Shown here: positions 8,503-9,290 of the stretch, one piece after another
Position numbering within the stretch: position 1 is the stretch's first letter
How the letters are laid out: each line of letters starts with the position of its first letter
From: Eledone cirrhosa
Taxonomy: Eukaryota
DNA length: 64,000 nt
NCBI GenBank assembly: GCA_964016885.1
Contig: OZ024743.1
Coordinates: 253,146,001 to 253,210,000, forward strand
Reading direction: 5' to 3'
Notes under the pieces: model-generated
The model's database searches: none
What the model was told of the DNA's origin: nothing
Seen by the model: the letters and a program-made list of their open reading frames with translations, nothing else
Position numbers and translations under genes: made by a program

Positions 8503-9290
8503 TATATGAATGTATATATAATGTATATTTTGCAATACACTTTATGCTTAATTAAAAGCATTTTGAAGACCGTATGCTATTGTTTTAGAGTAGTGACAAA
8601 CTCACCTACTTTAATCTTAGCAAACAAGGGGAGATAAGCCGACAATGCCTTGTTTCGCATTTATTTATGCTTATCAAGGCTAACTACTCCCTCCTGTCTA
8701 CTGAGATCACTGATGTTATATTCTTATAGAATTCTAGTAAATAATCAGGAACTGATTATACAGAGCGGTTACCGGTGAGGCAGAAATTAAAAATTAGAAT
8801 TGGAGCTCTGAAATAGCAATATATATATGAATGTATATATAGTGTATTTTGCAATACACTTTATGCTTAATTAAAAGTATTTTGAAGAAGGTATGCTATT
8901 GTTTAAGAGTAGTGACAAACTCACTTACTTTAATCTCAGCAAACAAGGGGAGATAAGCCGACAAGGCCTTGTTTCGCATTTATTGATGCTTATCAAGGCT
9001 AACTACTCCCTCCTGTTTACTGAGATCACTGATGTTATATTCTTATAGAATTCTAGTAAATAATCAGGAACTGATTATACATTAGCCTTGATAAGCATCA
9101 ATAAATGCGAAACAAGGCCTTGTCGGCTTATCTCACCTTGTTTGCTGAGATTAAAGTAAGTGAGTTTGTCACTACTCTAAAACGATATCATACGGTCTTC
9201 AAAATGCTTTTAATTAAGCATAAAGTGTATTGCAAAATACATTATATATACATTCATATATATATTGCTATTTAAGAGCTCCAATTCTAA
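8503..9290. mobile_element. Retrozyme-like ~321-bp unit: 1.8 tandem copies + inverted segment in (TA)n
   Basis: 8508 and 8829 start the same sequence; 9082-9290 is the reverse complement of ~8797-9002; three HHR copies. Confidence 0.85.
9084..9128 (+). ncRNA. Type I hammerhead ribozyme, U3-A8 core variant (also on - strand at ~8956-9000 and, mutated, ~8637-8681)
   Basis: agcc-TTGATAA-gcat(caataa)atgc-GAAA-caaggccttg-TC-ggct: stems I, II and III all pair; GUC cleavage triplet. Confidence 0.8.

What the first reader, a model, noticed from the sequence alone, without database searches (positions are those of the whole stretch)
8762..8870. Conserved end motif shared by the 321-bp and 311-bp units despite unrelated ribozymes
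Seen: agagcggttaccggtgaggcagaaatta..aatt..gctctgaaatagcaatatatatatgaat (8762-8832) vs agagcggttgccggtccggcagaaatta..aatt..gctctgaaatagcgatatatatgtgaat (50557-50628). ATTTTGAAGACC follows downstream in both (8560-8571; 50362-50373), in the same orientation relative to the HHR. The HHRs differ (U3-A8/CAAGGCCUUG vs C3-G8/CGCG). All four array termini map to the two AT-rich spots flanking GCTCTGAAATAGC. Inference: this is the cis signal for RT recognition or priming (or a promoter), with the ribozyme as an exchangeable module.
Basis: partly seen in the sequence, partly recalled or inferred. Interest (0 to 1): 0.72.

Follow-up and report, generated by a model that had tools for sequence, protein, structure and literature searches.

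The report
Copying-start signal of a retrozyme family
Two non-coding ribozyme repeats in this animal genome are diverged relatives of one family rather than swapped modules, and the motif they share holds the two fixed points where their inserted copies end and is predicted to fold into an RNA shape that likely tells a borrowed Penelope-type enzyme where to start copying.

Summary
The motif is real: 60 of 71 letters are identical, and the genome holds 17,377 pattern matches. Insertion ends pile up at two sites in it: 39 of 47 ends in family A and 32 of 33 in B, and all 15 two-armed B insertions have one short and one long end. This is the published Penelope 'tail' (two internal reverse-transcription starts). 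The ribozyme is not a swapped module. A and B align end to end, and four more subfamilies (C-F) bridge their hammerheads. Trees of motif and ribozyme do not conflict significantly. New here: across A-F the motif keeps a predicted fold (outer stem, 19-22 unpaired bases holding the long end, inner hairpin) with compensatory changes, while its GC-rich letters are replaced in E and F. A 36-base upstream box is the best-kept sequence. No helper element carrying the motif was found, and no RNA data were available. The scan has reported this family's two-armed arrays before, and hairpins beyond the ends of another Penelope clade. Verdict: new member of a known kind (animal retrozyme) with a testable candidate start signal.

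The parts
8762..8832 (-). Shared motif in unit A (internal copy); holds both end sites and the predicted fold
8761..8810 (-). Predicted fold in A: outer stem arms 8805-8810 and 8761-8766, 22 unpaired bases 8783-8804 with the long-end site near 8793, inner hairpin 8770-8782
   Evidence: MFE and centroid agree, z -1.7; pair counts
8820..8831 (-). Short-end site of A (TA run and the four bases 5' of it)
   Evidence: 18 of 47 A ends
8536..8571 (-).
   Evidence: best-kept block across A-F, mean 76% identity
8507..9082 (-). Array A, arm 1 (about 1.8 units of 321 bp), short end at 8507 joined to (TA)n
9083..9291 (+). Array A, arm 2 (inverted, 5'-truncated), long end at 9291 joined to (TA)n
8950..9002 (-). 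Type I hammerhead of A (U3-A8 core at 8990-8996, 10-nt palindromic stem III, cleavage triplet 8960-8962); further copies near 8635-8682 (-) and 9083-9135 (+)
   Evidence: not found by Rfam among the 150 listed matches
50557..50627 (-). Shared motif in unit B (first internal copy; repeated every 311 bp)
50557..50604 (-). Predicted fold in B: outer stem arms 50600-50604 and 50557-50561, 22 unpaired bases 50578-50599, inner hairpin 50565-50577
   Evidence: z -1.3; 18 of 18 copies pair at 5 outer positions
50338..50373 (-). 36-base upstream box in B
50435..50480 (-). Type I hammerhead of B (C3-G8 core 50467-50473, 4-nt palindromic stem III, cleavage triplet 50443-50445); one per unit
50277..52116 (-). 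Array B, arm 1 (5.9 units of 311 bp), long end at 50277 joined to (TA)n
52115..53164 (+). Array B, arm 2 (3.4 units, inverted), short end at 53164 joined to (TA)n

Best explanation
Units A and B are diverged members of one family of non-coding hammerhead repeats, their copies end at two fixed sites inside the shared motif, and the motif is likely the RNA signal at which a borrowed Penelope-like reverse transcriptase starts copying. Shown: common descent of the whole unit; two fixed 3' ends 26-36 bases apart; random 5' ends; head-to-head arms, one short and one long, in (TA)n. Predicted: the RNA folds there into an outer stem of 5-8 pairs that closes 19-22 unpaired U-rich bases (holding the long-end start) and a small inner hairpin. 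Inferred from the anole Penelope-like element: the enzyme binds this region, nicks (TA)n on both strands and starts cDNA inside the RNA at the two sites, one per DNA end. The hairpin and the 3' arm of the stem lie beyond both ends, so they survive only in multi-unit or circular templates. This would explain why active members are tandem arrays and why this stretch is better conserved than the ribozyme, whose stems can change letters in pairs.
For: Ends: 39 of 47 A-family 3' ends at the two sites, which cover about 5% of the unit (read); 32 of 33 B outer ends, and 15 of 15 two-armed B insertions with one short and one long end. The genome holds 1,110 B short ends and 1,308 forward-strand long ends. 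C, E and F copies end at the same places. A C just past the short site is present in 136 of 138 internal B copies but missing in 59 of the first 100 listed short ends, so most starts do not follow the best annealing register. Fold: the same minimum-energy shape in A, B, C and E. Outer pairs are intact in 59-65 of 68 A, 18 of 18 B (5 pairs), 38-44 of 45 C/D and 11-14 of 14 E copies. Two outer pairs are exchanged on both sides in E and one in part of F. An inner pair is G-C in 36 and G-U in 23 A copies. A descriptor of the fold hits at the right place in 11 of 18 natural units and in 3-16 of 1500 shuffles. Literature: the tail equals the stretch between two internal start sites, in a stem-loop, and RNA 3' of the starts is needed (PMC11167929); a 30-40 bp tail on one inverted arm (PMC8557442; PMC3846280).
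Against: No autonomous element with the motif was found, so the enzyme is inferred from the insertion shape. Folding z-scores are modest (-1.3 to -2.1). In whole circular units the outer stem has probability of 0.6 or more in only 6 of 15. The descriptor was drawn after seeing the sequences and misses 7 of 18 units, one of them a duplicate. The double changes are three events on two lineages, not many. F's inner hairpin appears as drawn in few of 9 folds. Ends at a site show where copying starts, not which neighbouring letters are recognised; the upstream box is better kept in sequence and could be the true binding site. 41 of 100 B short ends keep the C, which fits priming by annealing to the TA run.
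Confidence: 0.62

Rival explanations
1. The ribozyme is an exchangeable module: unrelated hammerheads were attached to a common end signal.
For: Identity is lowest around the hammerhead (A-B 49% against 44% for shuffles). The motif-only tree groups A with B at 91% bootstrap while the hammerhead tree groups B with D. Two unrelated hammerhead copies in the window (near 41050 and 22840, minus) have a stem II nearly identical to B's.
Against: All six subfamilies are colinear, with the hammerhead at the same place inside a long stem I. D has B's proximal stem I with A's U3-A8 core, C has A-like flanks with B's C3-G8 core, and one A copy (L028) has C3-G8. Stem III palindromes run 4, 6, 7, 10 and 14 nt. 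The motif segment does not reject the hammerhead's grouping (p-AU 0.52; 29 of 49 rows). U3-A8 is a published covariation (PMC4209133).
Confidence: 0.07
2. Plain common descent with fixed ends set only by annealing of the nicked (TA)n target to the AT-rich spots; the motif has no function of its own.
For: The short site is a TA run and the long site ends in A/T. 41 of 100 B short ends keep the template's C. The conservation peak is broad, about 170 bases.
Against: The units hold other AT-rich spots that are not used. The long site has only 2-3 bases of microhomology and keeps its distance from the outer stem although A and B differ in the letters between. One short plus one long end per insertion (15 of 15) is not expected from annealing alone. 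The best-conserved GC-rich part lies beyond both ends.
Confidence: 0.13
3. The motif, or the upstream 36-base box, is conserved as a DNA promoter that makes the multi-unit transcript; the ends coincide with it because Penelope pLTRs hold both.
For: Penelope pLTRs carry internal promoters (PMC2377424, abstract) and TATA-like runs (PMC3846280). The box is the best-kept sequence across A-F (76%). A tandem unit needs a promoter somewhere.
Against: Paired changes point to RNA structure: the stem of the motif, and the box hairpin, which changes one pair in A. The GC-rich letters are replaced in E and F. It does not exclude the best explanation.
Confidence: 0.12
4. The motif is kept as the 3' splice site of a pLTR intron inherited from a Penelope-like parent.
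For: A, C and D have a donor-like hexamer after stem I and an acceptor-like hexamer in the motif, about 120 bases apart (consensus recalled). Penelope pLTRs contain introns.
Against: B lacks the donor; E and F lack the acceptor. A pattern for the spliced junction found 0 matches in the genome.
Confidence: 0.04

Closest known systems
Metazoan non-LTR retrozymes (Cervera and de la Pena 2020, PMC7229834, passages; Li, Clavereau and Pollet 2026, bioRxiv 10.64898/2026.07.22.740005, parts 1-3 of 5)
   Same: Non-coding, AT-rich tandem units of about 300 bp, each with a type I hammerhead; proposed to be non-autonomous partners of Penelope-like elements.
   Different: The parts read describe no insertion-end signature and no cis signal for the reverse transcriptase. 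Here both are mapped. Self-cleavage and RNA circles, shown there, are untested here.
pLTR 'tail' of Penelope-like elements: anole Poseidon PAc (Frangieh et al. 2024, PMC11167929, parts 1-2 of 4); Adineta Pen2a (PMC3846280, passages); Craig et al. 2021 (PMC8557442, passages and section 11)
   Same: Two internal start sites about 30-40 bases apart, 3' of the hammerhead; tail on one of two inverted arms; AT-rich or (TA)n targets; 5' truncation; start in a stem-loop with RNA needed 3' of it.
   Different: In PAc the starts lie in the first 120 bases of the ORF and the loop is AC-rich. Here the unit is non-coding, the unpaired strand is U-rich, and the fold has comparative support from six subfamilies. 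No sequence comparison with PAc was made.
Minimal and U3-A8 hammerheads of Penelope-like elements (Cervera and de la Pena 2014, PMC4209133, parts 1-2 of 4)
   Same: Type I motifs with palindromic stem III suited to dimer folding; U3-A8 covariation; great sequence variety within one genome.
   Different: Here the variants can be ordered within one colinear family, with the core switching between C3-G8 and U3-A8 more than once and a long extended stem I.

Membership tests
Metazoan non-LTR retrozyme | Tandem units of about 170-400 bp | tested here: met
   321 and 311 bp arrays; relatives 310-344 bp
Metazoan non-LTR retrozyme | One type I hammerhead per unit | tested here: met
   Core with stems II and III read in both window units and in 44 of 49 natural units by a strict pattern; Rfam did not list it
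Metazoan non-LTR retrozyme | No protein coded | tested here: met
   No frame of 100 aa or more inside either array
Metazoan non-LTR retrozyme | Dispersed, many copies | tested here: met
   17,377 motif matches, control 0
Metazoan non-LTR retrozyme | Self-cleavage and circular RNA in vivo | not testable with these tools
   No RNA holder listed; contigs only
Penelope-like element (autonomous) | ORF with RT and GIY-YIG endonuclease | tested here: not met
   None in the units; the units are non-autonomous
Penelope-mobilised sequence | Two fixed 3' ends with a 30-40 bp optional tail | tested here: met
   Two sites 26-36 bases apart
Penelope-mobilised sequence | Head-to-head inverted, 5'-truncated arms in AT-rich targets | tested here: met
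   15 two-armed of 18 B insertions; scattered 5' ends; (TA)n flanks
Penelope-mobilised sequence | Terminal sequence shared with the pLTR of an autonomous element | tested here: inconclusive
   No match in 30 + 70 + 31 PLE loci or the window's own elements; only part of the genome's families were seen
Exchanged ribozyme module | Ribozymes non-homologous, or segment trees in conflict | tested here: not met
   Colinear intermediates; p-AU 0.52

The most novel reading that the evidence does not exclude
The fold (outer stem, about 20 unpaired bases, inner triloop hairpin) is the structural start signal of a Penelope-type reverse transcriptase. It is read by shape and spacing rather than by letters, and a whole radiation of hitch-hiking ribozyme RNAs keeps it. 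It would be the missing cis element that explains the Penelope tail and how retrozymes move.
Probability: 0.4. Interest if true: 0.7.

Novelty: new member of a known kind. Interest (0 to 1): 0.45.

Why it matters
How Penelope-like enzymes, the closest retroelement relatives of telomerase, choose their internal start sites is open, and the link between animal retrozymes and these enzymes is proposed but not shown in the papers read. A 50-60 base candidate signal with natural compensatory variants and exactly mapped start sites gives ready substrates for an in vitro test. The family also shows a hammerhead core switching between C3-G8 and U3-A8 by descent, which removes the need for a ribozyme-swap story.

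Tried and rejected
Helper search, all negative. A motif or whole-unit profile found nothing near the window's Penelope-like ORFs or in 30 loci of a young 785-aa Hydra-type family. It found no pLTR in 70 of the 150 listed GIY-YIG places or in 31 loci of a second Hydra-type family; hits there were nested retrozyme copies. Two exclusion patterns for the motif with other neighbours gave 5 and 8 matches, all copies of A-D. A pattern for sequence beyond the long end of one Neptune/Nematis-type family found no common continuation in 17 loci. Among 208 retrozyme loci, two arms join a Penelope-like ORF directly: L024 (A long-end arm head-to-head with a Hydra-type arm) and L339 (E arm running into a Neptune/Nematis-type RT). 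Each is single, they name different clades, and deletion or nesting explains them as well. A DNA search with unit B returned nothing because its words are too common. Spliced-junction pattern: 0 matches. Rfam listed only simple-repeat matches among 150 of 192. Sequencing runs: no RNA holder listed; contigs cannot show starts or circles. A formal pair count with shuffle and slide controls on an A-F alignment was not run, so the covariation rests on my own counts. Literature searches for an octopus retrozyme (2 papers listed, neither on this) and for a Penelope cis stem-loop (15 of 23 listed) showed nothing on this fold. Subscription papers and the preprint's supplements were not seen.

Full report
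Setting. The window lies in a 3.0-Gb animal genome rich in (TA)n. Earlier scan notes call it octopus-like; I did not test that. It holds array A (321-bp unit, 8507-9291) and array B (311-bp unit, 50277-53164). Each is two head-to-head arms inside (TA)n. The hammerheads read on the minus strand in the direct arms, and all positions 5' or 3' below are in that sense.

Observation. The motif matches at 60 of 71 positions without gaps, and the 12-letter block is identical. Unit A against unit B scores 108, against a maximum of 34 in 1000 shuffles. An exact gapped pattern of the motif matches 17,377 places, control 0. The motif is a real peak: 58-60 of 70 columns against 57-61% elsewhere, scan p 0.002-0.008 in all six settings. 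The global alignment is nevertheless colinear from end to end.

Ends. In 30 loci found with the A motif (one a duplicate, one the window) I read 47 3' ends, leaving out ends cut by a locus edge and joints between tandem units. 18 fall at the short site, 21 at the long site and 8 elsewhere; the two sites cover about 5% of the unit. These loci were chosen for holding the motif, but their ends were free. In 18 B insertions (17 fetched plus the window), 32 of 33 outer ends fall at the two sites. All 15 two-armed insertions have one short and one long end, and the 5' ends are scattered. The genome holds 1,110 B short ends and 1,308 forward-strand long ends of A and B type joined to (TA)n. Internal B copies carry a C just past the short site in 136 of 138 cases, but 59 of the first 100 listed short ends lack it (counted by eye). 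Most junctions therefore lie at or before that base, and the tail measures 26-36 bases. This is the Penelope tail: 30-40 bp on one inverted arm (PMC8557442; PMC3846280), shown in vitro to be the stretch between two internal start sites (PMC11167929).

Is the ribozyme swapped? Searches for variants gave four more colinear subfamilies: C (about 316 bp, 450 pattern matches), D, E (about 344 bp) and F (about 343 bp). In all six the hammerhead sits at the same place in a long stem I that keeps its pairing while changing letters (folded for A-D; read by eye for E and F). Cores are U3-A8 in A, D and F and C3-G8 in B, C and E, and one A copy is C3-G8. Stem III palindromes are 4, 6, 7, 10 or 14 nt. D shares B's proximal stem I. 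Trees of 49 natural A-D units group B with D on the hammerhead domain (99) and on the rest, but B with A on the 80-column motif (91). AU tests on 29 of the 49 rows show that the hammerhead rejects A+B (p 0.004) while the motif does not reject the hammerhead's grouping (p 0.52). There is thus no significant conflict, and the U3-A8 change is a published covariation (PMC4209133). The swap reading fails.

What is conserved. The GC-rich part is 74-89% identical within A-D and 33-55% against E and F. Its shape persists. A, B, C and E fold to the same minimum-energy and centroid structure: an outer stem, 20-22 unpaired bases that hold the long end, and an inner hairpin (z -1.3 to -2.1). Outer pairs are intact in 59-65 of 68 A copies, 18 of 18 B (5 pairs), 38-44 of 45 C/D and 11-14 of 14 E. 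Two outer pairs are exchanged on both sides in E. In F one pair is T-A in L306 and L308 and C-G in L320 and L323, and L325 is mixed and breaks it. The outer stem forms in 6 of 9 F folds, the inner hairpin in fewer. One inner pair of A is G-C in 36 and G-U in 23 copies. A descriptor drawn after the fact hits at the right position in 11 of 18 units (one a duplicate) and anywhere in 3-16 of 1500 shuffles. Against this, the outer stem has probability of 0.6 or more in only 6 of 15 whole circular units, the double changes are few, and no formal covariation test was run. The idea of looking for hairpins beyond the ends came from scan note e1-8804881.

Helper. None was found. The window's own Penelope-like ORFs, a young Hydra-type family (RWK, DKT and CxCX5C motifs as in PMC8557442 section 11), 70 GIY-YIG loci of several Neptune/Nematis-type families and a second Hydra-type family lack the motif. 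Three of the Neptune/Nematis-type families have U3-A8 hammerheads with a palindromic stem III and two ends in (TA)n, so they are plausible in kind, but no sequence link was seen. Two direct junctions with coding elements among 208 loci (L024, L339) point to different clades and prove nothing.

Mechanism. Shown: one family by descent, two fixed ends, one of each per insertion, (TA)n targets. Predicted: the fold. Inferred from PAc: a Penelope-type protein binds this region, cuts both strands of (TA)n and starts cDNA at the two sites, each arm running back through a multi-unit or circular RNA until the arms join. The hairpin lies 3' of both starts and is never in a terminal copy, so only arrays can pass it on. 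Rivals are annealing alone (0.13), a DNA promoter (0.12), a ribozyme swap (0.07) and a splice site (0.04; 0 spliced copies).

Comparison and novelty. The element works like, and on sequence criteria is, a metazoan non-LTR retrozyme (PMC7229834, passages; preprint); cleavage and circles are untested. The tail is known. The scan has already reported two-armed arrays of the 310-311 bp family several times. What this finding adds is the six-subfamily comparison, the refutation of the swap, and a candidate structural start signal. Four searches showed no paper on this fold; subscription journals and the preprint's supplements were not seen. Verdict: new member of a known kind, interest 0.45.

Noticed in passing
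window 37140-38438 (+): 5'-truncated copy of a very young Hydra-type Penelope-like family; many copies elsewhere have intact 785-aa frames at 98-99% identity.
   Followed up: partly
window 42816-45240 and 1147-1938: Another Penelope-like family (502-aa frame, weak RVT_1 hit) with two arms whose ends differ by about 43 bases and a hammerhead near 44994 and 43062.
   Followed up: partly
window 32268-33271 (-): Broken Hydra-like ORF pieces next to a 141-bp repeat at 31422-31687.
   Followed up: no
window 9948-13023 (-): LINE-like frames (797 aa and 243 aa) with endonuclease and RT features, by eye.
   Followed up: no
window near 41050 and 22840 (-): Short hammerhead-bearing ends of another family whose stem II nearly equals B's; no further likeness seen.
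   Followed up: partly
window 40175 and 40700 (-); 14805 (-): Further hammerhead-like motifs, two of them 525 bases apart.
   Followed up: no
window 9520-9648: Long perfect palindrome made of the 5' region of the Hydra-type family.
   Followed up: no
L024:1233-3112 and L360: A-family long-end arm joined head-to-head, with a 4-base overlap, to a 5'-truncated Hydra-type arm; a possible mixed insertion or a deletion.
   Followed up: partly
L339:1-1950: Two-armed E insertion whose one arm runs into a truncated Neptune/Nematis-type RT in the same sense.
   Followed up: partly
L285, L290, L291, L297, L298, L303: The same SINE-like sequence follows the long end of one Neptune/Nematis-type family in 6 of 17 loci.
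   Followed up: no
runs X4, X5, X6 laid on window 50272-50900: Each holds a single 340-base contig of unit B (unit plus 30 bases, as a cyclic assembly path would give); run kind not on record.
   Followed up: no
window 8750-8816 and 50545-50611 (+): By eye, the plus strand has a short open frame of about 23 codons in both units that ends in a stop inside the motif, with several silent differences and no start codon.
   Followed up: no
L208:2770-2950 and L227:662-707: A further hammerhead repeat family with a weak match to the upstream box.
   Followed up: no
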